Source: Polaromonas sp. (lineage in GTDB: Bacteria; Pseudomonadota; Gammaproteobacteria; Burkholderiales; Burkholderiaceae_C). Taken from it: 62,176 nucleotides of DNA. The position numbers and the translations under genes were made by a program. The notes beneath the pieces are model-generated. The model did no database searches. It was not told the DNA's origin and worked only from the letters and a program-made list of their open reading frames with translations. The stretch spans positions 1-62,176 of the forward strand of contig JAYWFR010000112.1 of the NCBI GenBank assembly GCA_043778695.1, given 5' to 3'. Below are positions 23,927 to 49,050 of the stretch, piece by piece. Positions within the stretch are counted from its first letter, which is position 1, and each line of letters starts with the position of its first letter.

Positions 23927-25234
23927 TCACAAATAGCGCTCAAGCGCCTGCACTGTTTTGTCTGCCGCGCCTTGATGCGCCGCTGCAAACGCCAGCGCAG
24001 CGTTTGAGCTTTCTGTCTGCAGGCGGTCATCACACGCGAGCTTGCAGGCTTGCTGAAAGCCTTCTGGCATATCGGCCACACGCCGTGCAGCGCCTGCGGC
24101 CTCCGCCAGTTCGGCAGCATCAGCGAAATTAAAGGTGTACGGCCCCATCACCACCGGGCAGGCACACGCTGCCGCTTCAATCAGGTTTTGACCGCCGAGC
24201 TTTTCAAAGCTGCCGCCCAACAGGGCGACGCTGCTTAATGCGTAGTACAAAGGCATCTCGCCAAGCGTGTCGCCCAGCCAAATGTCGGCGTGCATCGCTT
24301 CTTCGTTGTCAAACGGGCTGCCGTGCCAGCCGGAGCGGCGCGACACGCTCAAGCCGTGCTGCACCACCAGCGCTGCCACATCGTCAAAGCGCTGCGGGTG
24401 GCGCGGCACAATTAAAAACTTGATTGCTACTGAATCGGGAGCTGCACGCGCGCTATTTACCTGGGCTACAGCCTTAATTTGACTTAAAAACAGGTCTTCT
24501 TCACCTTCCCGAGAACTGGCAAACATCACCACCGGTTGGCGCAGTGATTTGCGCCATTGCTTGCCAATTGCTTGCTGCGCAGCAGACGGCGCAGCATCAA
24601 ACTTGAGGTTGCCAAAGATGCCTGCCACGTCTACGCCGAGCTGGCGGTAACGCTTGGCATCATTGGCGGTTTGCGCATACACCGCCGTCAGCGCGGCATA
24701 GGCTGGGTAGGCCAGCGGCGACATGCTTAACGCCTGCTCTAAAGTCTTGTCAGACAAGCGGCCATTGACCAGCACCAGGGGCATGCCGTGTGCCTTGGCG
24801 GCATCAACCATGCAGGGCCACACTTCGGTTTCCATCAGCAAACCCAGGCGCGGCTTGAAGTGCTCAAAAAACCGCTCAACCACCACGCGGGTGTCCCACG
24901 GCTGCCAAGCCTGAATGTCACCCGGCATAAGCAGCGCCTTGCCCTCAGCGCGCCCCGTGGCTGTGCCGTGCGTTAGCAGCAGCCGAAGCCCTGGATGCTT
25001 GGCCCGCAGGGCTTTGAGCAAGATGGCCGCGGTGCGTGTCTCGCCCAGCGACACGGCATGCAGCCAGACCAGCTCTGATGCCATCTCAATAGGCAAGGTG
25101 TACCGGCCAAAGCGCTCGTCAACAGCCTCGCCATAACCGGGTTCCTGCACAGCGCGCTTAGCCATTTTGCGGCGCAGCAGCGGCTGGGCCGCGCGCATCA
25201 AGCCGGAATACAAAGACAACATCAGGCGGCTCAC
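23927..25234 (-). CDS. waaA: 3-deoxy-D-manno-octulosonic acid transferase
   Basis: WLHAVSLGE, ETEVWP, GNLKFD, PRHPQRF, GGQNLIEAA. Confidence 0.94.
   Translation of the reverse strand: MSRLMLSLYSGLMRAAQPLLRRKMAKRAVQEPGYGEAVDERFGRYTLPIEMASELVWLHAVSLGETRTAAILLKALRAKHPGLRLLLTHGTATGRAEGKALLMPGDIQAWQPWDTRVVVERFFEHFKPRLGLLMETEVWPCMVDAAKAHGMPLVLVNGRLSDKTLEQALSMSPLAYPAYAALTAVYAQTANDAKRYRQLGVDVAGIFGNLKFDAAPSAAQQAIGKQWRKSLRQPVVMFASSREGEEDLFLSQIKAVAQVNSARAAPDSVAIKFLIVPRHPQRFDDVAALVVQHGLSVSRRSGWHGSPFDNEEAMHADIWLGDTLGEMPLYYALSSVALLGGSFEKLGGQNLIEAAACACPVVMGPYTFNFADAAELAEAAGAARRVADMPEGFQQACKLACDDRLQTESSNAALAFAAAHQGAADKTVQALERYL
24426..24468 (+). repeat. Element A copy inside waaA
   Basis: GCTAC-N7-GGAGC-TGC-ACGCGC-N11-GGGCTA. 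Confidence 0.8.
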
Positions 25235-26226
25235 GCTAGTGCATCTTCACAAGCCTGCCACGCCTGCCAGACGGCGTCTACGCTGGGTGCAGGTCGGCCT
25301 AACACGCTGACTTGGCGAGCGCAGCCCAACGGCCCAGTGCGCCACGCGGTGTCAAAGTTATAAATTTGCACATGCGGCAAACCCAGCGCCACGGCGATAT
25401 GGCTAACGCCGCTGTCCACACCAATTGCCCCCGCGCACGAGGCGAGCTCGTTGGCTAACGCGTCAAGCGACAGCAAAGGCAAAACGGTGGCGCTACTGCC
25501 CATTTGTGCTGCTACGCTTTGGCTGGTAGCTAGCTCTTGGGCGCTGCCGTGCACCAGCATGATGTGGTTACCGCTGGCGGCCAAGCGCTGGCCCAGCGCT
25601 ACCCAGTTTTGCAGCGGCCAGCTTTTGTCTTGGCGTGACGTACCATGAATAAACGCTATAGTTTTAGGAGCTGCTAGCGCAACAAATGATTGGGCTACAG
25701 GCACTTTTAACCCATAAACTGGTGATTTTATAGCGACATCCGTGCTGTACCCCAAAGCCTTGGCAGCCAGCAGCCTGCCGCGCGCTACCGCATGAACGTG
25801 AGGCTCAAGCGAAATCGCCACATCAGCTGCCCAGCGGGTCGGCGCTTCGTACCCTGAGCCATCGGTTTGGTTGGCCATGGCGTAGCGTTTGCCTGTCGGC
25901 GTTAGCTTGGCCAGACGCGCGACAACAGCTGATTTCGTCAAGCCTTGCAGGTCAATGACCGCGTCGTATCTGTCCGTTTGCAAATCCGCTTTAAAGGCAC
26001 GCCACGCTTGCCGCGTTTGCGCTGCCCAAAACGATTTACGCCAGCGGCGCAGCTCGCAGGGGATGACGCGTCTCAAACCATCTACCTGGGTGAGCAGCGG
26101 GGCAAAAGCGTTTTCGACCACCCAATCAATTTGCGCGTTGGGCATGGCCGTCAGAATGTCTTGCACCACAGGCAACGTGTGCACCACATCGCCCAATGAC
26201 GAGAGTTTGACCATCAGAATCCGCAT
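25231..26226 (-). CDS. waaC: LPS heptosyltransferase I
   Basis: VKLSSLGDVVH, DLQGL.KSA, GVDSG..H. Confidence 0.93.
   Translation of the reverse strand: MRILMVKLSSLGDVVHTLPVVQDILTAMPNAQIDWVVENAFAPLLTQVDGLRRVIPCELRRWRKSFWAAQTRQAWRAFKADLQTDRYDAVIDLQGLTKSAVVARLAKLTPTGKRYAMANQTDGSGYEAPTRWAADVAISLEPHVHAVARGRLLAAKALGYSTDVAIKSPVYGLKVPVAQSFVALAAPKTIAFIHGTSRQDKSWPLQNWVALGQRLAASGNHIMLVHGSAQELATSQSVAAQMGSSATVLPLLSLDALANELASCAGAIGVDSGVSHIAVALGLPHVQIYNFDTAWRTGPLGCARQVSVLGRPAPSVDAVWQAWQACEDALA
25655..25697 (+). repeat. Element A copy inside waaC
   Basis: GCTAT-N7-GGAGC-TGC-TAGCGC-N11-GGGCTA. Confidence 0.85.
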
Positions 26227-26241
26227 CAGCGCGCGATTCAG

Positions 26242-27780
26242 TCAGTGTGCAGCAACGGCAAAACTGGCATCCGGTTTCACACTGCGCAGCAGCGCCAGCA
26301 TGTCAGCTTCAATGCGGTGTAGCGCGGCTTCGGTGTGCCCTTCAAAGCGCAGCACCAGCACCGGCGTGGTGTTGGACGCGCGAATCAAACCAAACCCATC
26401 CGGCCAGTCAACGCGTACGCCGTCGATGACGTTCAGAACTGCCACCCCCACGCTTATCGCTTCGCGTATGGCGCTGCCCCCCGAGGGGGCTGTGCTTGCT
26501 AGGGGCGGCCCGTCGCGGCGCTCGCCAGCTGGCGGCGCGAAGTTAACGGACTTGATCAGTGCCTCTACAACAGTATGCGGCTCACCCTCTTTGCAGGGCA
26601 CATTTAATTCAGGCGTGCTGAAACTCGTCGGTAGCGCATTGAGCACCGCGCTGGCATCCGCAGAGCGGCTGACGATCTCTAGCAGGCGCGCACCGGCATA
26701 GGTGCCGTCGTCAAAACCATACCAGCGCTCTTTGAAAAAAATATGCCCACTCATCTCGCCACCCAGCGGCGAGTTGATCTCTTTCATCTTGGCTTTGATC
26801 AGTGAGTGCCCAGTTTTGTACATCAGCGGCACCCCGCCAGCGGCCACAATGTCAGGGGCCAGGCGTTGTGAGCATTTCACGTCAAACACAATCGAGCCGC
26901 CTGGCACGCGGCTTAAAACATCGCGGGCAAACAGCATCATCTGGCGGTCAGGGTAAATGTTTTGGCCGTCTTTGGTGATCAACCCCAGGCGGTCACCATC
27001 GCCGTCAAACGCCAGGCCCAGTTCCGCGTCGGTAGCTTTTAAGGCGTTGATCAAGTCACGCAGGTTCTCAGGCTTGCTCGGGTCCGGGTGGTGGTTGGGG
27101 AAGTTGCCATCAACCTCACTGAACAGCTCAATCACCTCGCAGCCCAGCGCCCTAAAAACGGCGGGGGCCGAAGCACCCGCAATGCCGTTGCCAGAGTCGA
27201 TCACGATTTTCATCGGGCGAGCCAGCTTGATGCCCTGAACAATGCGATCACGGTATGCGCTAGATATATCGACCTTCTTGACGCTGCCGGGCGCTGCAGT
27301 ATTGGTGTCGGTGTCGGTGTTGGTGTTGGTGTTGGTGTCGGCGTCGATGTTGGTGTTGGTGTCGGTGTCGGTGTCGGTGTTGGCCTCTATCACGTGGCGC
27401 AGGTCTTGTATCTCATCGCCATAAATTGCCCTGCCGGCCAGCACCATCTTGAAGCCGTTGTAGTCCTTCGGGTTATGGCTGCCGGTGACCTGAATGCCTG
27501 ACGTGCACAACGTGCTGGCCGCAAAGTACAGCATGGGCGTGGTGACCATGCCAACGTCAATCACATCGACACCGCTGGCCGCTAGCCCGCGAATCAACGC
27601 AGCCGCCAAGGCCGGGCCGCTCAAACGGCCATCACGGCCGACTGCAACGGTTTTTTCTTTGGCCGCTAGCGCCGCCGCGCCAAACGCCTTGCCCAGCGCA
27701 AAAGCCACGTCGTCATTGATGGTGGTGGGCGTGACACCGCGGATGTCGTAGGCCTTGAAGATTGATGCATTGAGTTGCAT
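26242..27780 (-). CDS. algC: Phosphomannomutase/phosphoglucomutase with two inserted segments
   Basis: FKAYDIRG, TGSHNP, DGDGDR, GEMSGH, RASNT. Confidence 0.93.
   Translation of the reverse strand: MQLNASIFKAYDIRGVTPTTINDDVAFALGKAFGAAALAAKEKTVAVGRDGRLSGPALAAALIRGLAASGVDVIDVGMVTTPMLYFAASTLCTSGIQVTGSHNPKDYNGFKMVLAGRAIYGDEIQDLRHVIEANTDTDTDTNTNIDADTNTNTNTDTDTNTAAPGSVKKVDISSAYRDRIVQGIKLARPMKIVIDSGNGIAGASAPAVFRALGCEVIELFSEVDGNFPNHHPDPSKPENLRDLINALKATDAELGLAFDGDGDRLGLITKDGQNIYPDRQMMLFARDVLSRVPGGSIVFDVKCSQRLAPDIVAAGGVPLMYKTGHSLIKAKMKEINSPLGGEMSGHIFFKERWYGFDDGTYAGARLLEIVSRSADASAVLNALPTSFSTPELNVPCKEGEPHTVVEALIKSVNFAPPAGERRDGPPLASTAPSGGSAIREAISVGVAVLNVIDGVRVDWPDGFGLIRASNTTPVLVLRFEGHTEAALHRIEADMLALLRSVKPDASFAVAAH
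26444..26520 (+). repeat. Family B palindromic repeat, in frame in algC
   Basis: CCCCCACGCTTATCGCTTCGCGTATGGCGCTGCCCCCCGAGGGGGCTGTG...GGCGGCCCGTCGC. Confidence 0.8.
27301..27383. repeat. Coding hexamer tandem repeat (GGTGTY)n in algC
   Basis: Encodes NTDTDTDTNTNIDADTNTNTNTDTDTNT. Confidence 0.9.
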
Positions 27781-27800
27781 GGGGCGCGTCTCGTGTGGCT

Positions 27801-27885
27801 GTCATCCCGAACTCGATCCGGGATCCATCCCCGAATCGGATGTCGTCCTATAGGGGTGTGGATGGCGGATCAAGTCCGCCGTGAC
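27801..27885. repeat. REP/RPE-like paired-palindrome element (family D)
   Basis: GTCATCCCGAACTCGATCCGGGATCCA...TGGATGGCGGATCAAGTCCGCCGTGAC. Confidence 0.7.
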
Positions 27886-27981: not shown

Positions 27982-29592
27982 ATGAAAGCCCATGATCCGA
28001 GCAACGACATCAGCGCATCGGCAGATGCCTGCTACGCCGCCATGAAAGCGCGTGACGCCCGGTTTGACGGCTGCTTTTTTACAGCCGTCACATCCACCGG
28101 CATTTACTGCCGCCCGGTGTGCAGTGTGAAAGCGCCAAAGCGTGAGAATTGCCGTTTTTTTAGCCATGCCGCGCAAGCTGAAAGCGCCGGCTTTCGGCCC
28201 TGCCTGCGCTGCCGCCCTGAGCTGGCACCGCATTCAGTGGTGTGGTCGATTCAAGATGCGTCTTTCATCTTGGCGCACCAAGCGGCTAGATTGTTAGACG
28301 AACCAGAAGGCTGGACAAGTGATGCTGCCCCCACGCTTTTCGCTACGCGTCATGCGCTGCCCCCCAAGGGGGCTGTGCCGCCTAGCGGCAGCCCGTCGCC
28401 GCACACCCCTTCCGTAAAAAAGCTGGCTTTAAAACTTGGCATCAGTGACCGTCACTTGCGCCGTATATTTGAAGCGCAATTTGGTGTGTCGCCGCTGCAA
28501 TACCTGCAAACCCGCAGGCTGCTAACCGCCAAGCAGTTGCTGGCCGATACGCAACTGCCCATCACACACATCGCGCTGATGAGCGGCTTTGCCAGCTTGC
28601 GCCGTTTTAACGCCGCGTTTGTAGCCCACTACCGACTGAGCCCAACGCAGCTCAGGCGCGCTGCGCCCAAGGCTGACGCAGCGCACGGCATCACCATCAA
28701 GCTCGGCTACAGGCCACCGTATGACGCGCAAGCCATGCTGGCTTTCATGGAAACTCGGCGCATCAAAAGTATTGAATCGATCACTATCGAATCAATAGCT
28801 GCTAGCGCACATAAATACTGCGCTAGACGCACATTTGGCACTGAAATAGCCGGTAAAAAGCATGTCGGCTGGTTGCAAATGCGCTTTGACGAGCCGCGTC
28901 ATCAGTTGCTGCTAACCGTCAGCGACTCACTGCATGGCGTGCTGCCGCTGGTGATACGCCGGGTGCGCGCCGCGTTTGATTTGGACGCTGACCCCCAAGC
29001 CATCAACGCGGTGCTGCACAACGACTTTCCCACGGGCGACGGCCTGCGCGTGCCGGGTGCACTAGATGGTTTTGAATTGGCGGTGCGGGCGGTGCTGGGC
29101 CAGCAAATCACCGTGGCAGCGGCGCGCACGCTGGCGCAGCGCCTGGTTGACAAGTTTGGCGAGCCAATTGCCACGCCGTGGCCCGAGCTAACACGGCTCT
29201 TTCCTTCGCCATCTGTTTTAGCCTCAGCAACGGGTGATGAATTAGGTCAATTGGGTATTGTCAAGCAACGGCAAGCTGCCATTGTTGGCCTGGCCAAGGC
29301 GGTTGCTGGCGGCTTGCAGTTGCATGGCGGCGCGGATGTGCACGCGACCATTGAAGCACTTATTGCCCTGCCAGGCATTGGCGACTGGACAGCGCAGTAC
29401 ATTGCCATGCGGGCGCTGCGCTGGCCTGATGCCTTCCCTGCGGGGGATGTAGCGCTGCACAAAATATTGGGCGTTCAGGGGCAACAAGGCCCGGCGCGGC
29501 TGGCTGAGGCGGCATCGCTGCCCTGGAAGCCGTGGCGTAGTTATGCGGTGATACGGACCTGGTCTGGCGCATGGCGTGGGCGAGCAACTTGA
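27982..29592 (+). CDS. alkA: Ada-AraC-AlkA fusion (DNA-3-methyladenine glycosylase II)
   Basis: Ada Zn site GIYCRPVC...FRPCLRC, AraC HTH, VLGQQITV, LPGIGDWTA, DAFPAGD. Confidence 0.9.
   Translation: MKAHDPSNDISASADACYAAMKARDARFDGCFFTAVTSTGIYCRPVCSVKAPKRENCRFFSHAAQAESAGFRPCLRCRPELAPHSVVWSIQDASFILAHQAARLLDEPEGWTSDAAPTLFATRHALPPKGAVPPSGSPSPHTPSVKKLALKLGISDRHLRRIFEAQFGVSPLQYLQTRRLLTAKQLLADTQLPITHIALMSGFASLRRFNAAFVAHYRLSPTQLRRAAPKADAAHGITIKLGYRPPYDAQAMLAFMETRRIKSIESITIESIAASAHKYCARRTFGTEIAGKKHVGWLQMRFDEPRHQLLLTVSDSLHGVLPLVIRRVRAAFDLDADPQAINAVLHNDFPTGDGLRVPGALDGFELAVRAVLGQQITVAAARTLAQRLVDKFGEPIATPWPELTRLFPSPSVLASATGDELGQLGIVKQRQAAIVGLAKAVAGGLQLHGGADVHATIEALIALPGIGDWTAQYIAMRALRWPDAFPAGDVALHKILGVQGQQGPARLAEAASLPWKPWRSYAVIRTWSGAWRGRAT
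28327..28403 (+). repeat. Family B palindromic repeat, in frame in alkA
   Basis: GCCCCCACGCTTTTCGCTACGCGTCATGCGCTGCCCCCCAAGGGGGCTGTG...GGCAGCCCGTCGC. Confidence 0.8.
28783..28825 (+). repeat. Element A copy inside alkA
   Basis: ACTAT-N7-ATAGC-TGC-TAGCGC-N11-GCGCTA. Confidence 0.88.
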
Positions 29593-29594
29593 TT

Positions 29595-34057: not shown

Positions 34058-34178
34058 CTCCCTCTCCCTCTGGGAGAGGGCAGGGGTGAGGGCTGGCGGT
34101 GCTTAAAATCGTGTAAGTTGTTAATGGCAAACGGGGAGCCCTCACCCTCACCCTAACCCTCTCCCAAAGGGAGAGGGA
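34058..34178. repeat. BoxC-like (family C) palindromic repeat
   Basis: CCCTCTCCCTCTGGGAGAGGGCAGGGGTGAGGG...CCCTCACCCTAACCCTCTCCCAAAGGGAGAGGG between convergent genes. Confidence 0.85.
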
Positions 34179-34200: not shown

Positions 34201-35883
34201 TCAAGAGGCGAATTCAGTCAATAGTTGGCCAGCCAGCGGCGGCTTTGCTAGCAACCCTTGGCTGTCCGCCACTTGCTGGCCATTCACCCACACGCCGTGT
34301 ACTCCGACCGCGTCGGTCGTCAGCCGAGCTGCGCCGCCTGGCAAGTCAAACACGCGCCGCTTGGGGCCACGGCCTACGGTAGCTGGGTCAAACAACAACA
34401 GGTCTGCGGCCATGCCTTCTTTGATGGTGCCGCGATCCGTCATGCCAAAGACGCGGGCGGGCTGGGACGTCAGGCGGCGTATGGCGTCAGTCAGGCTCAT
34501 GGCTTTCAGGTCGCGCACCCAGTGGCCGAGCAGGTGCAGGCCAAAACCTGCGTCGTTGAAAAAGGTCAAATGCGCACCTGCGTCGCTGAGCGAGATGATG
34601 CTGTGCGGGTGGTTCAACATGCGGCTCACTGCGTCAGCGTCGCTGTTCAAAAGCTGAGCCGTGAAGACTGTTTGCAAGTTTTCAGCCAAGGCCAAGTCAA
34701 GCATCACGTCCAGCGGGTCGCACGCCCGCTCTTTTGCAATGTCGGCCACGGTGCGCTGCTCCAGCGCTGCGTTGCTTGGTAGTGCGCATTCGACCACGTG
34801 CACCTTGTCCCACTCGCCGTTAAACAGGCGAAAGGTTGTCGGCGCTGAAATCTCTGCGCGTACCGATTGACGAAAGGCGTTGTCGCTTAAGACTGCCTTC
34901 AACGCATCGCCTTGCAGGCCGAGTGCAGGCTTCCAGCTGAGCAAACCTTCAACGGGGTAAGCCGACGCCAGGGTGAAGTCCATAGTCAACGGGCAGCACG
35001 ACACCTGGCCAATCAAGCGGTGGCCGCGCGCGTTGGCGCTGGCGATTTGCTCTAAATCGTTGAACACTGCGTCGGGGTTGGTGCTGTTGTGCAGCAGCGC
35101 GGCAACCATGACGGGACGACCTGATTGTTTGGCCATGCTTTCTAAAAACGGCACCGGCATTTGCCCGCCCTTGGTCACCATGTACACGCCCTTACCTCGT
35201 TCCCCCATGGCGGTGATCAGCGCCATCATTTCAGTATCGCTGGCCAGGCGCGACGGCATGGGTAAGCCGCCTTCGCCGTTGTGCGCCGGGCTGGTACTGC
35301 TGGCAAAGCCAACGGCGCCTGCTGCCATGGCGTCACGCACGACGGTTTGCATCTCCCTGATCTCATGCGCTGTAGCTTGCCTTTTTGAAGCGTCCGCCCC
35401 CATTACCCAGGTGCGTACCGATGAGTGGCCAATGTAGGCGGCGATATTGACCACACAGCCTTTGCCGCGCAGCATCGCCAGGTACTCGGCGAAAGTCTCG
35501 AAGCCCCAGTCAATGCTGCTTTTCAGCACATCAAGCGACATGCCTTCAACCTGCGTCAGGTTGCGCATCGTCATGTCCCGGTCAGCGGGTTTGCACGGCG
35601 CAATGGTAAAGCCGCAGTTGCCCATCACAGCGGTTGTCACGCCCAACGCGGGGGACGGTTTGAGCGTTGCGTCCCATGTGATTTGCGCATCAAAATGGGT
35701 GTGGCTGTCGATGATGCCAGGCATCAGTGCCAAGCCAGTACCATCAATGACTTGATGCGCACTTTCAGGCAAGTTTGTGCCTATAGCCCGTATTTTACCT
35801 GCGCTAACAGCTACGTCTTTGATAGCAGGCTGCGCACCCGTTCCGTCATACACCAACGCGCCTTTGATCAGCAAATCGTCCAT
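34201..35883 (-). CDS. N-acyl-D-amino-acid deacylase family amidohydrolase
   Basis: PGIIDSHTHFD, GVTTAVMGNCG, SDAGAH, ADLLLFDP. Confidence 0.88.
   Translation of the reverse strand: MDDLLIKGALVYDGTGAQPAIKDVAVSAGKIRAIGTNLPESAHQVIDGTGLALMPGIIDSHTHFDAQITWDATLKPSPALGVTTAVMGNCGFTIAPCKPADRDMTMRNLTQVEGMSLDVLKSSIDWGFETFAEYLAMLRGKGCVVNIAAYIGHSSVRTWVMGADASKRQATAHEIREMQTVVRDAMAAGAVGFASSTSPAHNGEGGLPMPSRLASDTEMMALITAMGERGKGVYMVTKGGQMPVPFLESMAKQSGRPVMVAALLHNSTNPDAVFNDLEQIASANARGHRLIGQVSCCPLTMDFTLASAYPVEGLLSWKPALGLQGDALKAVLSDNAFRQSVRAEISAPTTFRLFNGEWDKVHVVECALPSNAALEQRTVADIAKERACDPLDVMLDLALAENLQTVFTAQLLNSDADAVSRMLNHPHSIISLSDAGAHLTFFNDAGFGLHLLGHWVRDLKAMSLTDAIRRLTSQPARVFGMTDRGTIKEGMAADLLLFDPATVGRGPKRRVFDLPGGAARLTTDAVGVHGVWVNGQQVADSQGLLAKPPLAGQLLTEFAS
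35784..35826 (-). repeat. Element A copy inside the amidohydrolase gene
   Basis: TAGCCC-N11-GCGCTA-ACA-GCTAC-N7-ATAGC. Confidence 0.85.
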
Positions 35884-39763: not shown

Positions 39764-39977
39764 ATACATTGCATGTCGCCGCTGCGGCATAGGGTTTACC
39801 AGCGTCCGGTAAATGTTCTTTGCATCAGCGGGCAGCTTTCATAAGCGGTAGTTTTTGCTGTTAAGTCGGCCACTGCTGAACCATAAAAGTATGTGGTCAG
39901 CCAAACGCATGACAAAAGGTAAGCGTGCCGCGACGAGCGGCTTGGCGCATCAGACCGCAGCTTCTTACAATTTGTGC

Positions 39978-40637
39978 ATGTGCAAAACACCCCAAAAACA
40001 AAAGCGTCAAATCAGGCAAACTGGTTTTTCTCTGCTCGAGGTTCTGATTTCCATCGTTATTTTGTCGTTTGGCTTGTTGGGCATGGTCGGCCTGCAAGCG
40101 GCGGCCCTGCAGGGCAACCGCGATGCGCGTTTGCAATCCACTGCCATTTCTTTGGCGCGTGAGTTGGCTGAAATGATGCGCGGCAACAAGGATGTAGCGC
40201 TGCTGACGCTTAACAATCCCTACTTTGGCGACTTCGCGTCGTTTCCACTTGCACCAGCAATTCCGTCGTATTGCCTGAATGTCGGCTCGTTGCCAACCGC
40301 TTGTGGTGCTTCCGCAGCCATTGCAGCGCCTGCTATCGCGACAGCGCAAATGACCGAATGGCTAGCACGCGTCAGCAACGAATTACCGGGCGCACATGTC
40401 GTGGTTTGCGTAGACGCCAAACCCTACAACACCAGCACCGGAACGCCGGTTTGGACCTGTACGCCGCCCGCAGCGGGTGCTGCTGCCACCAGCGTGATCA
40501 AAATCGGCTGGAGTCGCCCGTCTACCAAGCGGGCTAACGCCAACGACAAAAGCAACGTAGTTAGCGACGTGGATGCCGCCGACCGGGCCACCTACCCCTC
40601 GCTCGTCTTTCCGATTATTCCTGGCAACGTTTTATGA
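39978..40637 (+). CDS. pilV: Type IV minor pilin PilV
   Basis: G/FSLLEVL prepilin motif, GLLG..GLQ; start chosen at ATG 39978. Confidence 0.88.
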   Translation: MCKTPQKQKRQIRQTGFSLLEVLISIVILSFGLLGMVGLQAAALQGNRDARLQSTAISLARELAEMMRGNKDVALLTLNNPYFGDFASFPLAPAIPSYCLNVGSLPTACGASAAIAAPAIATAQMTEWLARVSNELPGAHVVVCVDAKPYNTSTGTPVWTCTPPAAGAAATSVIKIGWSRPSTKRANANDKSNVVSDVDAADRATYPSLVFPIIPGNVL

Positions 40638-41668
40638 AACACCCCCAATTCAAGCGCCCCGCAGCGCAACGCGGCCTGACACTGATTGAGCTGTTGGTTG
40701 CGTTGGTGATCAGTTCGGTCATCATCATTGCGGCAATATCGGCTCTGATCGTCAGTCGGCAAGGCTTTAGCACGGTGGATGCAGCGTCTCAGCTGCGCGA
40801 CAACGCTCGCTTTGCAACTCAGCAAATTCAGCGCTTTGCTGTGCAGGCCGGGTTCAATGATTTTGAAGACGCGACCACAACCTGGACCAAGGACAAAACC
40901 ACTGGAATACCTGTCAGCAGCTCGGGTGGTGACACGCTACCCAGCGTGTTTGGTTTTAACAATGCAACGGCAAGCGCTAGTGACCCAACCAATGTAGGGG
41001 TGGCTCGTGTAGGAACAACATCCCTGGGCTACGGCAGCGATGTATTGATTTTGAAATACCAAGTGCCAGAAACCTATCCGAGCTCTACCAAAGCAGACAA
41101 GTCGATGATCGACTGCTTTGGTGCCCCGCCAGTAGATTCTGATATCCGGCAGTACCCGGGAGATCGACGTACCAACGTGTTGCATATCGCGGTGAGCACC
41201 ATCACTGGCGAGCCTGAACTTAATTGCAGTACCGACAAAAAAGTCCAGCGTCAGCCCATCCTTGCCGGCGTTGAAAATTTTCAGGTGTTGTACGGCGTTG
41301 ATGGCGTCACCGCCAACGTTGCAACCGCAACAACTGTGACGCCAACCTTTATCGCCACCAACTATTTGCGCGCCGACCAAATGGCCGTGGTGCCCGACCC
41401 CACAGGTGACGCCACCAATGCCAACTGGCGTCGGGTGCGCAGCATCAAAATCGGTATGGTAATCAGAGGGCCGCTTGGCTCCGCGCAGCAAGCTTTGTCG
41501 CAAACTTACTACCCTTTTGGCAAGGCCACCAGTGCTGCGGGCGGCTCTACAGGCTCAGCCATGTCGTCCGTTAACGACCCGGGCACCGCCTACACACCAC
41601 CTGCCGACACGCGCCTGCGGCAAGTGGTGACCTTTACCGTTCACCTGCGCAATGAGCAAGGGCTTTGA
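40634..41668 (+). CDS. pilW: Type IV minor pilin PilW
   Basis: G/LTLIELL, GVENFQVLYGVD, LRN terminus. Confidence 0.9.
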   Translation: MKHPQFKRPAAQRGLTLIELLVALVISSVIIIAAISALIVSRQGFSTVDAASQLRDNARFATQQIQRFAVQAGFNDFEDATTTWTKDKTTGIPVSSSGGDTLPSVFGFNNATASASDPTNVGVARVGTTSLGYGSDVLILKYQVPETYPSSTKADKSMIDCFGAPPVDSDIRQYPGDRRTNVLHIAVSTITGEPELNCSTDKKVQRQPILAGVENFQVLYGVDGVTANVATATTVTPTFIATNYLRADQMAVVPDPTGDATNANWRRVRSIKIGMVIRGPLGSAQQALSQTYYPFGKATSAAGGSTGSAMSSVNDPGTAYTPPADTRLRQVVTFTVHLRNEQGL

Positions 41669-41669
41669 C

Positions 41670-42317
41670 ATGAATTTAATAGGCCACCGCCGCTCTAAAG
41701 CGGCTAAAAGTTTTGCGATGTTGCCAAAGCAACGTGGCGCATCATTGATCATGGTGATGATCATCCTAACCATCGTTTCGATGATTGGTATCGCTGGCAT
41801 ACAAATTTCCACCATGGGTGAGCGCGGTGCTAGAAACGACCGCGATTACCAGCTCGCCTGGCAGTCGGCAGAGGCGGGGCTGATGGACGCGGAAAGCGAT
41901 ATTTTTGGGCCGGGAGCATCAACCCGTCGAAGCGTATTTATGCCAACGGGCATCGAGCGCATTGACTTGAGCAAGTTTGTGCCAGGCTGTGGAGCGGCCG
42001 GCAACAGCAGGGGGCTGTGCGGCATGCCTGGCCCAGGCAAGCCGCAATGGATTTCCGCCGACTTTGAGGTGCAGGACAGCACCGCCCAAACCACCAAATA
42101 CGGCGAGTTTACTGGCAACGCTTTTGCAGCAGGTGCCGGTGCGGGGCCGGCGCGCGCACCCCGCTATTTGATTGAGCTCATGCGCGACAGCGCAGGGGTT
42201 GGCTCTGAATGTCGCGACGAAACAGCGGAACCTTGTTATGTCTACCGCGTCACGGCCATGGGATTTGGCCCGCGCCAGGACATTCAGGCGGTGCTACAGA
42301 TGATTTACCGCAAGTGA
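41670..42317 (+). CDS. pilX: Type IV minor pilin PilX
   Basis: QRG/ASLI without E5, AWQSAEAGL, YRVTAMG.G. Confidence 0.88.
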   Translation: MNLIGHRRSKAAKSFAMLPKQRGASLIMVMIILTIVSMIGIAGIQISTMGERGARNDRDYQLAWQSAEAGLMDAESDIFGPGASTRRSVFMPTGIERIDLSKFVPGCGAAGNSRGLCGMPGPGKPQWISADFEVQDSTAQTTKYGEFTGNAFAAGAGAGPARAPRYLIELMRDSAGVGSECRDETAEPCYVYRVTAMGFGPRQDIQAVLQMIYRK

Positions 42318-42333
42318 TGAGCGGGTGGGCAAT

Positions 42334-45300
42334 ATGGAAAAAACAATGAAAACGCTGAAATTACTTTCAAATCTGCGCGGCAAGCGTACCAACAGCAGTG
42401 CGTTGCTGCAACCGTCGCGCTTTATCAACGCAGCACTCAAGCCCTGGGTTGTGGTTACGGGGGCCTTGCTGGCCGGCACCGCCGCATTTTTGGTCATCGG
42501 GGCCACCACACCGCCTGCCATCAAGGCACTTAGTTTGTCGAGTGAGCCGTTGTTTGCGTCCGCTACGGTGGACAAACCGGTGCTGGCACTGGCTATTTCA
42601 GCCGAGTTCCCGACTGTGGGCGCGCAGTATCGGGACACGGTTTATAGCCCTGTGAACGAATTTCTGGGCTACTACGACGCTGAAAGTTGCTACAGCTATG
42701 TCAACGCCCCCACCGAAGTCGGCTACGCCGCTGTTAACTACTCTGACTACAAGCGCTTCGACAGAATAGGACCGGCCGTGGCCAGAAAATGCACCGGCAC
42801 TGTCGATGGTTTTAGTGGTAACTTTTTAAATTTTGCATCTAGCTCGTCGATTGACATGCTGCGCCTGGCTTTGTCCGGTGGTGACCGCGTGGTTGACACA
42901 GGCAGCGCCAGCGCCAGTTTGACTATTTTGCAGCGAGCCGTGTTACCCGATGGCGACCCTTCGTGTTTTTGGAACAGCAGCAGTAACTTTCCCGCCAAGA
43001 GTATCCCCAAGGACTCGGGCGATTACCTGGGTGCCGTGCCAAAAGCAATGCGGACCGAAGCTACCGGCTCAGTTGCCACTGGCGCAGACATTCTTGTTGC
43101 CAACACGCTGAACCGAATCTACTTTGGCGTTAGCACCAGCGCAACCAGTGTGGTGCTGCCGGTCAGCGGCTGTGGCAGTACCACCAAATACACCCTGGGC
43201 GGCACGCCTGCATCGGCTACCGGCCCCGTTACTAAGGGCGTGGTCCAAACATTGCCAGGCGACGCTTCTGCGGCTTGCGCTGCCGAATACGGCACTTGCA
43301 CTTTTTCCGACGTCAAAGAGGTCTGGTATGGCGCTGGCACCAGCTGGGCAGTTGCGCCAGGCTACAACAGTGTGTCATGTTCTAACGGTGTTTTTGGTGA
43401 CCCTATCGGCGGCACACCAAAGAATTGCTACACACGGCCCTACACGGGGACGTGGAAGCCGTCCGGTGGCGGAACAATGAACAGCGATGGCTTTTTTTAT
43501 GCGCGCGTTCAAGTCTGCAACGTGAACGCTTCAAAAGTTTTGCAGGACAACCGCGACTACGGTTTGTGCACCCAGCAGCCCAACGGCTTTTACAAGCCAA
43601 CCGGCACAATTCAAAAATACAGCAACCAAGTGCGGCTGGCGGCTTTCGGTTACTTGATGGACCAAACAGCCAGCTGGGACACGCCAACGCCAGGCCGCTA
43701 CGGCGGTGTGTTGCGCGCCCCGATGAAATATGTGGGCTCTAAAACTTTTGACAATGCCGGCATTGACAACACCCCCAACAGCGGTAACCCGAATGCCGAG
43801 TGGGACGCCAACACCGGCGTGTTTGCCGCCAACCCTGATGTCGACACCACACAAACAACGCCCATCAGCGGCGTGATTAACTACTTGAACAAGTTCGGCC
43901 GCACTGGCCCGGTACCAGGCCGCTACAAAAAATACGATCCTATCAGCGAGATGTACGGCGAGGTGTTGCGATACCTGCAGGGCCTGCCCCCCACACCCGA
44001 GGCAGTGTCAGGTCTGGCAGACACAAAAGGAGCGTTTTATGACGGCTTTCCCGTAGCCACCACATGGGCAGACCCTTACGGAGGTGGGCGTACCAATACC
44101 ACCGACTATTCATGTGTGAAGGGCAATATCGCTGTGGTCGGAGACATCAACACGCATGATGGCGACCGACTGCTAAAGCGCACTGCGGACTTGAGCAACA
44201 ACCTGCCGGACTTTTCTTACGGGATAGGCGGATGGAACTACATCGTCAGCGCGTTTGAGTCGGGCACAGCCGCCACGTACACTGACGGCCAAGGCGCTTC
44301 CCGCAGCACCAGCAACCCAAATACAAAGAACACCCAAAGTCCTTCGGTCTCTCAAGGCTCACCCGCGTCCATCATGGGTCAAGCATATTGGGCACACACC
44401 CATGACATTCGCGGTAAAAACTGGACCGCCAACCCAGCGCTGCAAAGGCCGGGCTTGCGGGTCAAGTCGTTCTTTTTTGACGTGAATGAAGGCGGCTCTG
44501 GTAGCGACACCAGCAACCGGCAAAACCGAAATCAGTTTTTTACCGCCTCAAAATATGGGGGTTTCAACACCGAAGCGGACAAGATCACGTTGTCCAAGCC
44601 TTTTAATACTTCCGGTAATCCTTTCACCAGTCAGTCTGGCACCACTGACAACAATGTTTGGCAAGACGAAGCCAACCCCGGTGAGGCACAAAGCTACTAT
44701 TTGTCCAGCAGCGCGCGCAGCACGCTGGCTGCATTTGACAAGATTTTTAACACTGCGGCGGTTGCCGCCAACAGCATCGCCAAAAGCGCCGTTTCAAACA
44801 AAAATCTAACGACCGCTGGCAGTTCAATCTACCAAGGAGCTTTCAACACGTCCGACTGGAGTGGTGAGATATCGTCGGTGCCGTTGTCATTGACAGGAAC
44901 CAGCACCATTTCGCTGGGCAGCCCAACTTGGACTGCCGCCGCTGCACTAGCGGCCAGGTCGGCAGCCTCCAGGAACATCGTTATCGGCCGCGAAGGCAGT
45001 GCCGCCAACCCGACTGCCACGCCGTTTTTATGGGCTTCGATAGATTCCACCATGAAAACCAACCTCAACAAGGTTGCACCAACCAACGCAGCCGACGCCC
45101 TGGGTTCGGACCGGCTCGATTACCTGCGTGGTGACAGGACCAAAGAGGGCGCGCCGTTTAGAACCCGCAGCACGCCGCTCGGTGATGTGGTTAACGCGGG
45201 TATTGTTTATTCAGGCGCGCTGACGACCAACATCATCCCCTACACCGACGAGTACAAGACGTTTTTTACCAGCAACAGCGGCAGAACGCCAGCCTTGTTT

Positions 45301-46830
45301 GTCGGTGCCAACGACGGCATGCTGCATTCGTTCAATGCCCTGACAGGTGCGGAGCTTTTTGGTTATATCCCAAGCTGGATGGGACCCAAGCTGGCGGCGC
45401 TGACTGTCAACACCTACACCGCTAACCACCAAGCTTATGTTGACGCCACACCGGCGGTGGCAGAGGCGCAAGTGGGCAGCGCAGGCTCCGCTTCAGACTG
45501 GAAAACCGTGCTGGTAGGCGGCACTGGCGCGGGGGGGCCTGGCGTTTACGCGCTTGACGTCACCGACCCAACGGCATTCAGTGCGTCCAAGGTGATGTGG
45601 GAGTTCACCAAAGCGGACGACGCAGACATGGGCTACGTGGTGGGCCAGCCACAAATTTTAAAGCTGCGCACCAGTGCATCTACCGTTAAGCCGGCCACTT
45701 ATCGCTGGTTTGCACTGGTGGCCAGTGGCGTGAACAATTACCTTCCGTTCCCAGACACCTCTGGTACGTACAGCACCACTGGCAACCCGGCGTTGTTCTT
45801 ATTGGCGCTTGACAAGCCCGCTGGCACAGCGTGGTCAGCCACTGGCAGCAGCCCCAACTACTACAAACTGTCTGTGCCTGTAGATCCTTTGTTGAACGCG
45901 ACCAACGCTACTGGTTTGATCAATTTCGCGACCACGCTTGGGCCTCTGCGCGAGCTGTCACAGGTCTACATGGGCGACCTGCACGGCAAGGTCTGGCGGC
46001 TGGACTTTAGTGAGCGCGGTGCCGCCGATTGGGTTTTTGAAAAGTTGTCTTTCTACAAAGTTACTGCTACCGACCCATACCCCTTGTATGCGGCTAAAAC
46101 TGCTGCTGGGTTAGTTCAACCTATCAGCATGGCCCCTGCTGTCGTAGCTGCGGGTACTTTGAAAGGATTGAAAAGGAACTACGTCGCGTTTGCAACCGGC
46201 AAGTATCTTGAAAACGCAGACAAAACCTCTACTGCGCAAAATTCGTTTTACGCCATTTTGGAAGACGGCACGGCCTCAGCAACAGCGGGCGGTGCGTCAG
46301 TACCCGGTCGTGGCAGGCTGCAAGCTGGCACCATTGATGCGACTACCTTGGCTGTCACTGTGCCGCCATTTAAATGGGGACGCGCCACCAAAGACAGCGA
46401 CGCGCAACGTTCAGGTTGGTATGTCGACTATGTAGCGTCGGGCGAGAAAAGTATTTCCTCCCCGTTAGTTGTTGGAGACGTCGTTAACTTCGTAACGGTC
46501 ATTCCTTTAGCGGCGGGAACTTCGGGCTCTTGCACCGCAAACGGCGGTGGCGGCGGCGTTTACGCTATCAACGTTGACACTGGCGTTGGAATATCCTCGC
46601 GAATCCCAGACATTCCTGGGCCGCAGCTGTACTTTGACACGCCATCAACAACTTACACCATCAGCACATCGACTGGACGCAGGGTAAAGACGATCAACCC
46701 TCTCGTGGTTCTCCCGACGTCGGGTGCGCTCAAGGTGGCACCGCCCAACCCGATTACCATCGTTTCTGGCCGCTTGAGCTGGCGCCAGATCAACAACTAC
46801 CAAGACTTGAAAAACGATACCTACCCATGA
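42334..46830 (+). CDS. pilY1: Type IV pilus adhesin PilY1/PilC
   Basis: About 1500 aa; VGANDGMLHSF, G.YALDVT, GDLHGKVWRLD, GWY, RLSWRQI; start uncertain (42325-42346). Confidence 0.9.
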   Translation: MEKTMKTLKLLSNLRGKRTNSSALLQPSRFINAALKPWVVVTGALLAGTAAFLVIGATTPPAIKALSLSSEPLFASATVDKPVLALAISAEFPTVGAQYRDTVYSPVNEFLGYYDAESCYSYVNAPTEVGYAAVNYSDYKRFDRIGPAVARKCTGTVDGFSGNFLNFASSSSIDMLRLALSGGDRVVDTGSASASLTILQRAVLPDGDPSCFWNSSSNFPAKSIPKDSGDYLGAVPKAMRTEATGSVATGADILVANTLNRIYFGVSTSATSVVLPVSGCGSTTKYTLGGTPASATGPVTKGVVQTLPGDASAACAAEYGTCTFSDVKEVWYGAGTSWAVAPGYNSVSCSNGVFGDPIGGTPKNCYTRPYTGTWKPSGGGTMNSDGFFYARVQVCNVNASKVLQDNRDYGLCTQQPNGFYKPTGTIQKYSNQVRLAAFGYLMDQTASWDTPTPGRYGGVLRAPMKYVGSKTFDNAGIDNTPNSGNPNAEWDANTGVFAANPDVDTTQTTPISGVINYLNKFGRTGPVPGRYKKYDPISEMYGEVLRYLQGLPPTPEAVSGLADTKGAFYDGFPVATTWADPYGGGRTNTTDYSCVKGNIAVVGDINTHDGDRLLKRTADLSNNLPDFSYGIGGWNYIVSAFESGTAATYTDGQGASRSTSNPNTKNTQSPSVSQGSPASIMGQAYWAHTHDIRGKNWTANPALQRPGLRVKSFFFDVNEGGSGSDTSNRQNRNQFFTASKYGGFNTEADKITLSKPFNTSGNPFTSQSGTTDNNVWQDEANPGEAQSYYLSSSARSTLAAFDKIFNTAAVAANSIAKSAVSNKNLTTAGSSIYQGAFNTSDWSGEISSVPLSLTGTSTISLGSPTWTAAAALAARSAASRNIVIGREGSAANPTATPFLWASIDSTMKTNLNKVAPTNAADALGSDRLDYLRGDRTKEGAPFRTRSTPLGDVVNAGIVYSGALTTNIIPYTDEYKTFFTSNSGRTPALFVGANDGMLHSFNALTGAELFGYIPSWMGPKLAALTVNTYTANHQAYVDATPAVAEAQVGSAGSASDWKTVLVGGTGAGGPGVYALDVTDPTAFSASKVMWEFTKADDADMGYVVGQPQILKLRTSASTVKPATYRWFALVASGVNNYLPFPDTSGTYSTTGNPALFLLALDKPAGTAWSATGSSPNYYKLSVPVDPLLNATNATGLINFATTLGPLRELSQVYMGDLHGKVWRLDFSERGAADWVFEKLSFYKVTATDPYPLYAAKTAAGLVQPISMAPAVVAAGTLKGLKRNYVAFATGKYLENADKTSTAQNSFYAILEDGTASATAGGASVPGRGRLQAGTIDATTLAVTVPPFKWGRATKDSDAQRSGWYVDYVASGEKSISSPLVVGDVVNFVTVIPLAAGTSGSCTANGGGGGVYAINVDTGVGISSRIPDIPGPQLYFDTPSTTYTISTSTGRRVKTINPLVVLPTSGALKVAPPNPITIVSGRLSWRQINNYQDLKNDTYP

Positions 46831-47345
46831 CCCACAAACGCCAAACTGGTTTTACCCTGATCGAGCTGATGATTGTGGTGGCAGTGGTAGGCATTCTTGC
46901 CGCCATTGCTTACCCGTCATACAGCGAGTCAGTTCTCAAGGGCAAACGTGCGCAGGGGCGGACCGCTCTGGCCGAGCTGATGCAACAACAAGAGCGTTAC
47001 ATGACGCAAATGAACTGCTACCTAGCCTTCACGACCGCATTTAGCGGTGGCGTCGCAACGGCCACGGCTGTGGCTGGCGTGGCTCCGTGCGGCGCAGCAC
47101 CAAACTCAGTGCCATTTAAAGTCGCCTCCGGTGACAATGCCGCACCCGCCTACTACCTGAGTGCGGGTTCGTGCCCGGCTGCGAGCGGCGTCGTGTTAGC
47201 GTTGACCGAGTGCGTGCAACTCACGGCGACGCCGGTGGGGACTGACGGCCGGGTGGGCACGCTGAGCATCACCTCCGCGGGCAGCAAAACCTGCACCGCG
47301 CCATCCGGTGGTACGCAGCCGCCACAGGCAGTCTGCTGGCCATGA
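46827..47345 (+). CDS. pilE: Type IV minor pilin PilE
   Basis: G/FTLIELMIVVAVVGILAAIAYPSY, QER, CW terminus. Confidence 0.9.
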   Translation: MTHKRQTGFTLIELMIVVAVVGILAAIAYPSYSESVLKGKRAQGRTALAELMQQQERYMTQMNCYLAFTTAFSGGVATATAVAGVAPCGAAPNSVPFKVASGDNAAPAYYLSAGSCPAASGVVLALTECVQLTATPVGTDGRVGTLSITSAGSKTCTAPSGGTQPPQAVCWP

Positions 47346-47926
47346 CACAGGTTCAAGGCCGCCACAAGGGCTTCACACTTATCGAGCTGATGGTGACCAT
47401 CAGCATCGCGGCAGTTTTGATGATGATTGCCGTGCCAGATCTCACGTCGTTTAGAAGAAACGCCGAGCTAACGTCAGTAGCCAACAAATTCATCAATGCA
47501 GTCAACGCAGCCAGGGGCGAAGCCATGAAACGCGGCATGAACGCCATGGTGACACCACTGGACAACGGAGCAAGTTGGGGCGTTGGCTGGGCTGCATTCG
47601 TAGACAAAACTAGATTGCAAAGCTACAACTTAAGCCCCGACAGCGCAGTTGCCATCCAGGAAATGGTGCCGAGCGGCATCACAGTGACTGGCAACAGCAA
47701 CGCGGGCGGCGCAACGCCTTACATCATGTTTGACGCCTCAGGGTTTTCCAAGGCAAAAGCGGGTAATCCAGCAGCGCTTGCCGTGGAAATCAAAAGAAAT
47801 GATGTCAGCATTGCAGACCAGCCCAGTCAAACGCGCTACGTGATCATTTCAGTGACGGGCCGCGTTAGGGTGTGCAAGCCTGCCATGGCAAACGACCCCA
47901 CATGCAACATGACTTCGAACGACTGA
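47342..47926 (+). CDS. fimT: GspH/FimT family minor pilin
   Basis: G/FTLIELMV, AR.EAMKR, W..GW, GRVR. Confidence 0.85.
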   Translation: MTQVQGRHKGFTLIELMVTISIAAVLMMIAVPDLTSFRRNAELTSVANKFINAVNAARGEAMKRGMNAMVTPLDNGASWGVGWAAFVDKTRLQSYNLSPDSAVAIQEMVPSGITVTGNSNAGGATPYIMFDASGFSKAKAGNPAALAVEIKRNDVSIADQPSQTRYVIISVTGRVRVCKPAMANDPTCNMTSND

Positions 47927-47946
47927 CAACAGGTGCTTTGGGCGGT

Positions 47947-49050
47947 ATGTTGGTTACACAAACCATGGCCCAGGCAGTCCAACTGGCCAGTAGAGCGCGG
48001 GGAACATCGTGCCCCAACCCAGCGGTAGCTTGCTTATTGTTTGGGACCGACGGCACGGTTTTAGGCCAAGGCCACACCCAAGCTGCGGGCGGCCCGCACG
48101 CTGAAATCATGGCGCTGCGCGATGCAGCAGCCAGGGGGCATTCGGTCAGGGGCGCAACCGTTTACGTCACGCTGGAGCCCTGCAGTCACCACGGCCGCAC
48201 GCCGCCTTGTTGTGACGCGCTGATTGCCGCTGGCGTTAAAAAAGTGGTGGCGTCAATTGCTGACCCGAATCCGCTGGTGTCCGGCCGGGGCTTTGCGCGT
48301 TTGCGGGCTGCAGGTATTGAAGTAGAAGTGGGGCCCGGCGCGGCTGAATCGCGAGAGTTGAACATTGGCTTTTTCAGCCGCATGGTTCGCAAAATGCCTT
48401 GGGTGCGGATGAAGGTCGCGGCATCGCTTGACGGACAAACGGCGCTACTCAATGGCCAAAGCCAGTGGATCACCGGCGAGGCGGCGCGGGCTGATGGCCA
48501 TGGGTGGCGGGCGCGCAGTTGTGCCGTGCTGACAGGCATTGGCACGGTGCTGGCTGACAACCCGCGGCTGAATGTTCGATTGGTTGAAACCACCCGTCAG
48601 CCCCACATTGTGATTGTTGACAGCAAGCTTGAAACACCGCTAGACGCTCATATTTTAGGAGCTGGTCGCGCACGTTTCATATACGCTTCAGGCCGCAATG
48701 ATACTAAAAAAGCAGCTTTAGAAGCACTGGGAGTCACCGTCATTTACCTACCGGGCCAAAACGGCAAAGTTGACCTTCGCGCCATGCTGCACGACCTCGC
48801 GCGGCGTGAAGTCAATGAGCTGCACGTTGAGGCGGGGCATAAGCTCAATGGCTCGTTTATTCGAGAAGGTTTGGTTGACGAGCTGCTGGTGTACTTGGCG
48901 CCGAAGCTTTTGGGCATGGGGCAAGGTGTGGCTAGCTTTGGGCCGCTACAAAGTTTGCTTGATGCAACCGAATTGAAGTTTATGTCGACCGAAATGGTTG
49001 GCAGCGACTTGCGCATACGCGCACGCGTGAGCGGGCACGACCAGTTTTAA
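47947..49050 (+). CDS. ribD: Riboflavin biosynthesis deaminase/reductase
   Basis: PNP.V, HAE, TLEPCSHHGRTPPC, SLDG, SQWIT. Confidence 0.94.
   Translation: MLVTQTMAQAVQLASRARGTSCPNPAVACLLFGTDGTVLGQGHTQAAGGPHAEIMALRDAAARGHSVRGATVYVTLEPCSHHGRTPPCCDALIAAGVKKVVASIADPNPLVSGRGFARLRAAGIEVEVGPGAAESRELNIGFFSRMVRKMPWVRMKVAASLDGQTALLNGQSQWITGEAARADGHGWRARSCAVLTGIGTVLADNPRLNVRLVETTRQPHIVIVDSKLETPLDAHILGAGRARFIYASGRNDTKKAALEALGVTVIYLPGQNGKVDLRAMLHDLARREVNELHVEAGHKLNGSFIREGLVDELLVYLAPKLLGMGQGVASFGPLQSLLDATELKFMSTEMVGSDLRIRARVSGHDQF
48646..48688 (+). repeat. Element A copy inside ribD
   Basis: GCTCA-N7-GGAGC-TGG-TCGCGC-N11-ACGCTT plus A/T tail. Confidence 0.7.

What the first reader, a model, noticed from the sequence alone, without database searches (positions are those of the whole stretch)
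24426..48688. Element A is overprinted on coding sequence of six genes, apparently often without adding length
Seen: copies lie within intact ORFs of waaA (VAQVNSARAAPDSVA), waaC (VAQSFVALAAPKTIA), alkA (TIESIAASAHKYCAR), the amidohydrolase (AIKDVAVSAGKIRAI), the SAF oxidoreductase (LAQANSAQAAIKTGA) and ribD (AHILGAGRARFIYAS), read on either strand. In the amidohydrolase the element encodes the family's conserved N-terminal strand pattern DVAV..GKI.AIG, which cannot be a simple loop insertion. Inference: the site either evolved in place through codon and amino-acid changes or replaced native sequence by conversion. Either would mean selection or drive for the DNA site itself, analogous to DNA uptake sequences shaping proteins in Neisseria and Pasteurellaceae, but with a much longer motif. 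The nearby IESI-T-IESI duplication in alkA hints at insertion for that one copy.
Basis: partly seen in the sequence, partly recalled or inferred. Interest (0 to 1): 0.8.

Follow-up and report, generated by a model that had tools for sequence, protein, structure and literature searches.

The report
DNA signal written over bacterial genes
A roughly 50-base DNA motif, present about 750 times in this freshwater bacterium, is written over working genes in place rather than inserted into them and is conserved at the DNA level, so it is likely a long, unstudied recognition signal, possibly for choosing which DNA the cell takes up.

Summary
Confirmed and extended. All six copies lie in intact genes. 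Three (amidohydrolase, SAF oxidoreductase, ribD) add 0-1 residues against site-free orthologues. Three (waaA, waaC, alkA) add a median 3.5-6 residues, well short of the 16-codon core. The alkA IESI duplication is absent from 4 of 5 congeners that match the site, so it is later slippage, not an insertion scar. Genome-wide there are about 760 fixed-length copies, 36% inside genes. Of 44 testable genic sites absent from a distant relative, 25 add no length and 5 add 10 or more residues. Silent motif positions are strongly constrained (10 of 71 differ, 43 expected) while amino acids there diverge twice as fast. Orthologous copies shift together to species-specific dialects. There is no hairpin covariation, target duplication or near-identical pair. 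The motif is confined to part of Comamonadaceae, occurs in temperate-type phage genes and is missing from two large plasmids. It works like Pasteurellaceae/Neisseria uptake sequences but is longer, has a dyad core and sometimes adds length. No receptor was found; an uptake role is inferred (about 0.45). Fragments were listed, uncharacterised, in 2017.

The parts
24425..24473 (+). Element A core, antisense inside waaA (23927-25234, -); variable loop; the site is shared by many element-bearing genera
   Evidence: 49 bits
25654..25702 (+). Element A core, antisense inside waaC (25231-26226, -); loop, median +3.5 aa
   Evidence: 57 bits
28782..28830 (+). Element A core, sense inside ada/alkA (27982-29592, +)
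   Evidence: 48 bits
28771..28797 (+). IESI-T-IESI 5-codon duplication; later than the element
   Evidence: absent in G029, G015, G021, G036; present in G025
35779..35827 (-). Element A core, sense, overprinted on the N-terminal D-aminoacylase-type segment of the amidohydrolase (34201-35883, -)
   Evidence: 42 bits
37875..37923 (+). Element A core, antisense, overprinted in the SAF/DRL oxidoreductase (36759-38117, -) with no length change
   Evidence: 50 bits
48645..48693 (+). Element A core, sense, overprinted in ribD (47872-49050, +); graded partial sites in other genera
   Evidence: 40 bits
6265..6313 (-). Intergenic copy
   Evidence: 49 bits
6834..6882 (-). Intergenic copy
   Evidence: 46 bits
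7113..7161 (-). Intergenic copy
   Evidence: 52 bits
11652..11700 (+). Copy overlapping a gene end
   Evidence: 45 bits
14173..14221 (-). Intergenic copy
   Evidence: 44 bits
29594..29642 (+). Intergenic copy between alkA and ogt; gap about 60 bp longer in site-bearing genomes
   Evidence: 40 bits
55681..55729 (+). Intergenic copy, convergent gap
   Evidence: 55 bits
57627..57675 (+). Intergenic copy, convergent gap
   Evidence: 59 bits
62074..62122 (-). Intergenic copy
   Evidence: 43 bits

Best explanation
Element A is a fixed-length double-stranded DNA site that is built and kept in place inside genes by base substitutions, and it is likely held there by a sequence-specific protein, most likely the DNA-uptake machinery, which would make it a third family of uptake sequence. 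Shown: (1) anatomy: a 17-bp dyad core GCTAY-N7-R(T/G)AGC, a GC-rich second block, and A/T tracts phased at about 10.7 bp on one side only; (2) most genic copies replace native codons without adding length, at positions whose native peptide already half-fits; (3) silent motif positions are conserved while the protein changes faster; (4) dozens of orthologous copies shift in the same direction in each species; (5) copies are evenly spaced, show no clear replication polarity and are thin in low-GC3 DNA. Inferred: a trans-acting reader with graded affinity lets partial sites improve stepwise. Inferred and weaker: where spacing is free (gene ends, linkers), copies can also arrive as short inserted or templated patches.
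For: Length: 25 of 44 anchored sites absent from G343 have exactly zero length change and 30 are within 3 aa; 5 add 10 or more. In-place origin: at the 25 zero-change sites aa identity to the site-free orthologue is 0.48, against 0.17 for swapped peptides; motif score median -52 against -84 for random coding DNA. Graded partial sites occur across genera at ribD, SAF and amidohydrolase. Constraint: 10 of 71 four-fold sites at informative positions differ from congener G029, 42.8 expected base-matched; aa change 80/271 inside against 923/6162 outside. Dialects at 46 orthologous pairs: position 27 A>C 23 vs C>A 1; position 22 A>T 16 vs 0; position 29 to G 26 vs 0; position 40 G>T 12 vs 0. The C27/A27 split follows the congener tree. 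Spacing: 4 neighbour distances under 200 bp against 28 expected (of 473); for genic copies 0 against 17 (of 238). Polarity 111 vs 100. Frame bias: 223 of 275 genic copies in two frames. Zero core matches in plasmids of 353 and 257 kb from motif-bearing hosts, yet 63 viral loci including terminase, anti-repressor and primase genes. These match properties reported for USS/DUS (PMC2817400, PMC2397512, PMC3458573 passages; PMC3630211 abstract). Acidovorax temperans, A. facilis and Verminephrobacter are naturally transformable, the last via type IV pili with apparent sequence selectivity (PMC4212676 passages).
Against: No receptor was identified. ComEC is found in 58 of 61 family genomes regardless of motif count; it was not found in motif-bearing G391 and is in pieces in G342. 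The window's FimT does not track the motif. V. eiseniae, the one Comamonadaceae with evidence of selective uptake, is listed in Tong et al.'s table with only one, unrelated motif pair. The core carries 47 bits, is near-palindromic and does not form inverted pairs, unlike USS/DUS. Length gains of 10 or more are enriched over control windows (5/44 vs 83/6664, p=0.0003), and site-bearing intergenic gaps are longer in 23 of 28 cases; USS/DUS are said not to spread by insertion. One 11-mer central haplotype occurs 21 times against 2.8 expected, which hints at some templating. G343 itself carries the motif, so raised scores at its empty sites may be decay rather than pre-adaptation.
Confidence: 0.45

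Rival explanations
1. The sites are bound inside the cell by a clade-specific nucleoid, topology or chromosome-organising protein that wraps about 90 bp. Ordinary selection for one site every few kb, especially at convergent gene ends, writes them into genes.
For: Dyad core with a 7-bp A/T spacer and no pairing covariation, as for a dimeric protein site. 10.7-bp A/T phasing. 165 of 263 convergent gaps hold a copy. Even spacing. Motif kept where ComEC was not found. The core resembles a LysR T-N11-A box (recalled).
Against: Zero core matches on two large plasmids that would also need such a protein, though they may be recent arrivals. No ori/ter or replichore pattern in 80 sampled 20-kb stretches of G343. 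Element-free stretches of 14-18 kb include the atp and dcw operons (gene names recognised from recall). Fast species-level dialects are unusual for a housekeeping nucleoid protein (inference). No candidate protein was found.
Confidence: 0.3
2. A templated overwriting process, such as microhomology-guided short single-strand patches (SPDIR-like) or an unknown conversion or reverse-transcription system, copies the motif onto half-matching sequence. It gives equal-length replacements in structured protein regions and insertions elsewhere, with little benefit to the cell.
For: Both insertions and overprints are seen. Multi-base switches occur in positions 27-36 at orthologous sites. Excess of one 11-mer haplotype. 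SPDIR is described in Acinetobacter (search listing only).
Against: No near-identical copies (best 57 of 67; mean nearest neighbour 48.0 against 46.2 for shuffled columns). Core spacers keep orthologous states. Strong silent-site conservation needs continuing per-site selection or drive. Native residues are retained within the element. The genome's single Y1_Tnp gene has no copy nearby.
Confidence: 0.2
3. An RPE/MITE-type mobile repeat that simply inserts in-frame into surface loops.
For: 5 of 44 genic sites add 10 or more aa; intergenic gaps are longer with a copy.
Against: 25 of 44 add nothing; no target-site duplication, hairpin covariation or young copies. A different repeat in the same window does insert cleanly (+27 and +29 aa), which shows the method detects true insertions.
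Confidence: 0.05

Closest known systems
Pasteurellaceae uptake signal sequence (USS) and Neisseriaceae DNA uptake sequence (DUS)
   Same: Hundreds of dispersed, evenly spaced copies in both orientations; about a third in genes with reading-frame bias; arise in permissive parts of core genes; thin in foreign DNA; a core plus helically phased A/T tracts (as USS); lineage dialects (PMC2817400, PMC2397512, PMC3458573 passages; PMC3630211 abstract).
   Different: 49-bp core of 47 bits plus tail instead of a 9-12-bp core; near-palindromic core; no inverted terminator pairs; a minority of copies add length; no uptake test and no receptor known.
Spaced motif pairs GCTAT(N7)ATAGC, GCTTAT(N5)AAGCG and ATAGCT(N22)CAAAAG listed by Tong et al. 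2017 (PMC5217627)
   Same: Fragments of the same element in Acidovorax ebreus, Rhodoferax ferrireducens, Polaromonas naphthalenivorans and, sparsely, Variovorax paradoxus; bias to convergent gaps.
   Different: Section 13 gives them as separate 'potential novel motifs' with no full structure, no overprinting analysis and no mechanism.
Rickettsia palindromic elements (RPE) and MITE/REP repeats (recalled)
   Same: Dispersed repeat found within intact ORFs, encoding recurrent peptides.
   Different: Mostly no added length, no target duplication, no hairpin covariation, no near-identical young copies, no link to the genome's Y1_Tnp gene.

Membership tests
USS/DUS uptake sequences | Hundreds of copies, far above chance, dispersed more evenly than random, both orientations | tested here: met
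USS/DUS uptake sequences | Arise in place by substitution and recombination, not by copy and insertion | tested here: inconclusive
   Met for most genic sites (25 of 44 zero change), but 5 of 44 genic and 23 of 28 intergenic contrasts show added length
USS/DUS uptake sequences | DNA-level conservation in coding sequence with frame bias | tested here: met
USS/DUS uptake sequences | Depleted in foreign and plasmid DNA | tested here: met
   0.66 vs 1.59 per 5 kb across GC3 octiles; 0 core matches in 611 kb of plasmid
USS/DUS uptake sequences | Lineage-specific dialects | tested here: met
USS/DUS uptake sequences | Inverted pairs forming terminators | tested here: not met
   shortest neighbour distance 111 bp; close pairs are depleted
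USS/DUS uptake sequences | Promotes DNA uptake by competent cells | not testable with these tools
   needs an uptake assay
USS/DUS uptake sequences | Dedicated receptor co-occurring with the motif | tested here: inconclusive
   ComEC near-universal, FimT patchy; the PilE hit to PF16732 is not specific
RPE/MITE/REP mobile repeats | Full-length in-frame insertion relative to orthologues | tested here: not met
RPE/MITE/REP mobile repeats | Target-site duplication or near-identical young copies | tested here: not met
RPE/MITE/REP mobile repeats | Conserved hairpin with compensatory changes | tested here: not met
   paired counts at or below expectation in G000 and G029; only a slight excess in G343; no Rfam family
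Replication-polar motifs (Chi, KOPS) | Strand bias switching at ori/ter | tested here: not met
   111 leading vs 100 lagging in 1.6 Mb sampled from 0-3.06 Mb of G343

The most novel reading that the evidence does not exclude
Comamonadaceae carry a third, independently evolved self-DNA recognition system. A 50-90-bp wrapped site, read by an unknown receptor, is driven through the chromosome hard enough to rewrite 16-20 consecutive codons in hundreds of core proteins, including a conserved glycine of the amidohydrolase N-terminal segment and phage enzymes. It switches dialect across hundreds of loci between species of one genus and so acts as a species barrier.
Probability: 0.4. Interest if true: 0.9.

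Novelty: new variant of a known kind. Interest (0 to 1): 0.74.

Why it matters
Only two families are known to have uptake sequences that reshape their proteomes. This motif is several times longer, touches about 8% of genes here (263 of about 3,200 called), doubles local amino-acid divergence and spans about 30% of sampled genomes of a family that is abundant in fresh water and treatment plants. It gives a concrete, synthesisable candidate for sequence-selective transformation in Comamonadaceae, and a natural experiment on how far a DNA-level force can override protein constraint. It also explains recurrent odd peptides such as AQAAI and IAASA in these proteomes. Whatever the reader protein is, it has not been identified.

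Tried and rejected
Rfam: nothing relevant. Hairpin/RNA model: no covariation. Target-site duplications: none above background. Y1_Tnp link: one gene, no copy in its 2-kb locus. Replication polarity: none. Receptor by co-occurrence: ComEC and FimT uninformative. blastn of one copy against plasmids gave only E 2-7 hits. My gene caller failed on the 68% GC comparator (315 hits), so tblastn was used. A single-sequence AlphaFold model of the SAF protein was unusable (pLDDT 34), so no structural position is claimed from it. Sequencing runs: no RNA holder listed. DNA contigs confirm the waaA stretch and show a second strain, but the difference table was truncated (40 of 580 rows) and was not used for rates. 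Literature: searches returned nothing; others returned listings with nothing on this element by title; 38 led to Tong et al. About 1.7 million further PMC articles and most subscription papers are not searched, and bioRxiv supplements were closed. The last 0.78 Mb of G343 and most of G029 were not examined. 12 of 84 G343 sites could not be anchored and were dropped before the counts; these may be richer in insertions.
Full report
Observation. The six peptides translate from the stated places in unbroken ORFs with the expected domains. An iterated ungapped matrix found about 720 copies at 18 bits or more in the 3.17-Mb assembly and none at 8 bits in the reversed genome; 15 lie in the window. 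The consensus is TGCTAY-N7-R(T/G)AGC-TGCT(A/T)GCGC-N10-TGGGCTA(C/G)AG(G/C)C, followed by A/T tracts. Length is fixed: the 7-bp spacer occurs 436 times against 2-5 for other lengths, and 522 of 526 detectable right halves are in exact register. A/T dinucleotides are phased at 10.7-10.8 bp on the 3' side only. RibD neighbours place the organism in Comamonadaceae near Polaromonas and Rhodoferax.

The six sites. Against orthologues that lack the site, SAF adds 0 residues in 10 of 11 (78-88% identical proteins), ribD 0 in 14 of 23 with a maximum of +1, and the amidohydrolase +1 in 12 of 13, with the gap at the 3' edge of the core. The amidohydrolase segment aligns without a gap to D-aminoacylase 1V4Y. 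In four of five close congeners that carry the full site, the glycine found in outgroups is replaced by His, Arg or Tyr while the motif is kept. waaA, waaC and alkA lie in variable loops, with median gains of 5.5, 3.5 and 6 residues and never 14 or more. The alkA duplication is missing from 4 of 5 congeners that match the site, one of them only weakly, so it is later than the element. A second, GC-rich repeat gives an internal control: it inserts cleanly, +27 aa in the same alkA and +29 aa in pgm.

Genome-wide. With my own gene caller (approximate), 761 sites at 10 bits or more divide into 420 intergenic, 275 genic and 66 overlapping; 165 of 263 convergent gaps hold one, and 223 of 275 genic copies use two frames. 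I compared them with 1.6 of 3.8 Mb of a distant relative, G343. Of 84 sites, 72 could be anchored and 44 lacked the site there: 25 had zero length change, 6 were shorter, 8 added 1-9 and 5 added 10 or more. The last class exceeds control windows (83 of 6664). At the 25 zero-change sites identity to the site-free peptide is 0.48 against 0.17 for swapped peptides, so native residues survive inside the element. Intergenic copies differ: the site-bearing gap is the longer one in 23 of 28 contrasts, and the alkA-ogt gap is about 60 bp longer where a copy is present. Polarity of these changes was not established.

Constraint and dialects. Against 0.4 of 3.6 Mb of congener G029, four-fold sites at informative motif positions differ in 10 of 71 cases, with 42.8 expected from base-matched genome rates; sites were chosen in G000 only. 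Amino acids diverge at 30% inside and 15% outside (16 sites present in both). Of 73 G029 copies, 55 could be mapped and 46 pair with a G000 copy (one G000 copy paired twice). Their differences are directional: position 27 A>C 23 vs 1, position 22 A>T 16 vs 0, position 29 to G 26 vs 0, position 40 G>T 12 vs 0. Other congeners (14-18 copies each) have their own states, and the C27/A27 split follows the tree. G343 has a further dialect.

Not a young mobile element or RNA. There are no target duplications, the best pair of copies shares 57 of 67 bases, and dyad positions do not covary. Rfam has no match. Copies avoid each other, show no replichore bias and are thin in low-GC3 DNA. One central 11-mer is over-represented, 21 against 2.8, which leaves room for some templated change.

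Distribution. A strict pattern matched 3 of 301 genomes of the order draw, with more than one match only in two genomes of the family. In 250 family genomes, 74 had 100 or more forward matches to the core (counted by hand) and most others 6-60. Named genomes: Rhodoferax 262 and Polaromonas 334 forward matches; Variovorax 42; Xenophilus 18; Ramlibacter, Pseudacidovorax, Malikia and Hydrogenophaga 0-2; two conjugative plasmids 0. 63 viral loci match, with almost no host-like genes. Of 35 ORFs scanned, 18 hit phage families such as terminase, anti-repressor and primase, and one copy overprints a methyltransferase without an indel.

Mechanism. In-place, graded, evenly spaced, dialect-switching sites need a trans-acting reader (inference). 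The only established process with this signature is uptake-sequence drive (PMC2817400, PMC2397512, PMC3458573: passages; PMC3630211: abstract). Comamonadaceae can be transformed through type IV pili with apparent selectivity (PMC4212676: abstract and passages). Against this: no receptor emerged, V. eiseniae is not listed with the motif, the site is long and dyadic, there are no inverted pairs, and some copies add length. I give uptake 0.45, an intracellular binding site 0.30, templated overwriting 0.20 and plain insertion 0.05.

Novelty. Tong et al. 2017 (PMC5217627: section 13 and supplement rows) list fragments of this element as unexplained motif pairs. My searches found no description of the whole element or of overprinting, within the limits of the library. 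Two earlier AI notes from other genomes reach a similar reading; I treat them as agreement, not evidence. RPE, LysR boxes and the operon names are recalled. Verdict: real, ordinary explanations excluded, mechanism inferred; interest 0.74.

Noticed in passing
window 26440-26526, 28323-28409, 53237-53294: A second, GC-rich repeat of about 85 bp (about 30 blastn hits in the genome) makes recent clean in-frame insertions of +29 aa in pgm and +27 aa in alkA, absent from congeners. It may be the Betaproteobacteria BRE repeat of PMC3110155; the supplement search did not settle this.
   Followed up: partly
window 27290-27395: A hexamer microsatellite encodes a (D/N)T repeat loop in pgm, longer than in relatives.
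   Followed up: partly
window 39855-47926: Type IV minor pilin operon pilV-pilW-pilX-pilY1-pilE-fimT next to ribD. It holds no element copy. PilE hits PF16732. The FimT is close (46-49%) to only 3 of 60 family genomes, which suggests operon exchange.
   Followed up: partly
L452 4151 region; L433, L446, L419, L425, L427: Element A lies inside phage genes (DNA methyltransferase, terminase large subunit, primase, anti-repressor), with the same site shared among related phages.
   Followed up: partly
L334 1894-1942 (G000:C278): A 56-bit copy lies within the comEC locus; genome-wide this ORF is about 30 aa longer there than its G343 orthologue, which also has a site.
   Followed up: no
window 24464-24465: A strain from a second study differs by two adjacent bases inside the waaA copy, changing one codon.
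   Followed up: no
window 34059-34178: A third short inverted repeat downstream of the DEAD-box helicase gene, with many loose read ends in metagenomes.
   Followed up: no
G342, G391: Motif-bearing genomes in which ComEC is in three pieces or was not found; useful for testing decay of the motif after loss of competence.
   Followed up: no
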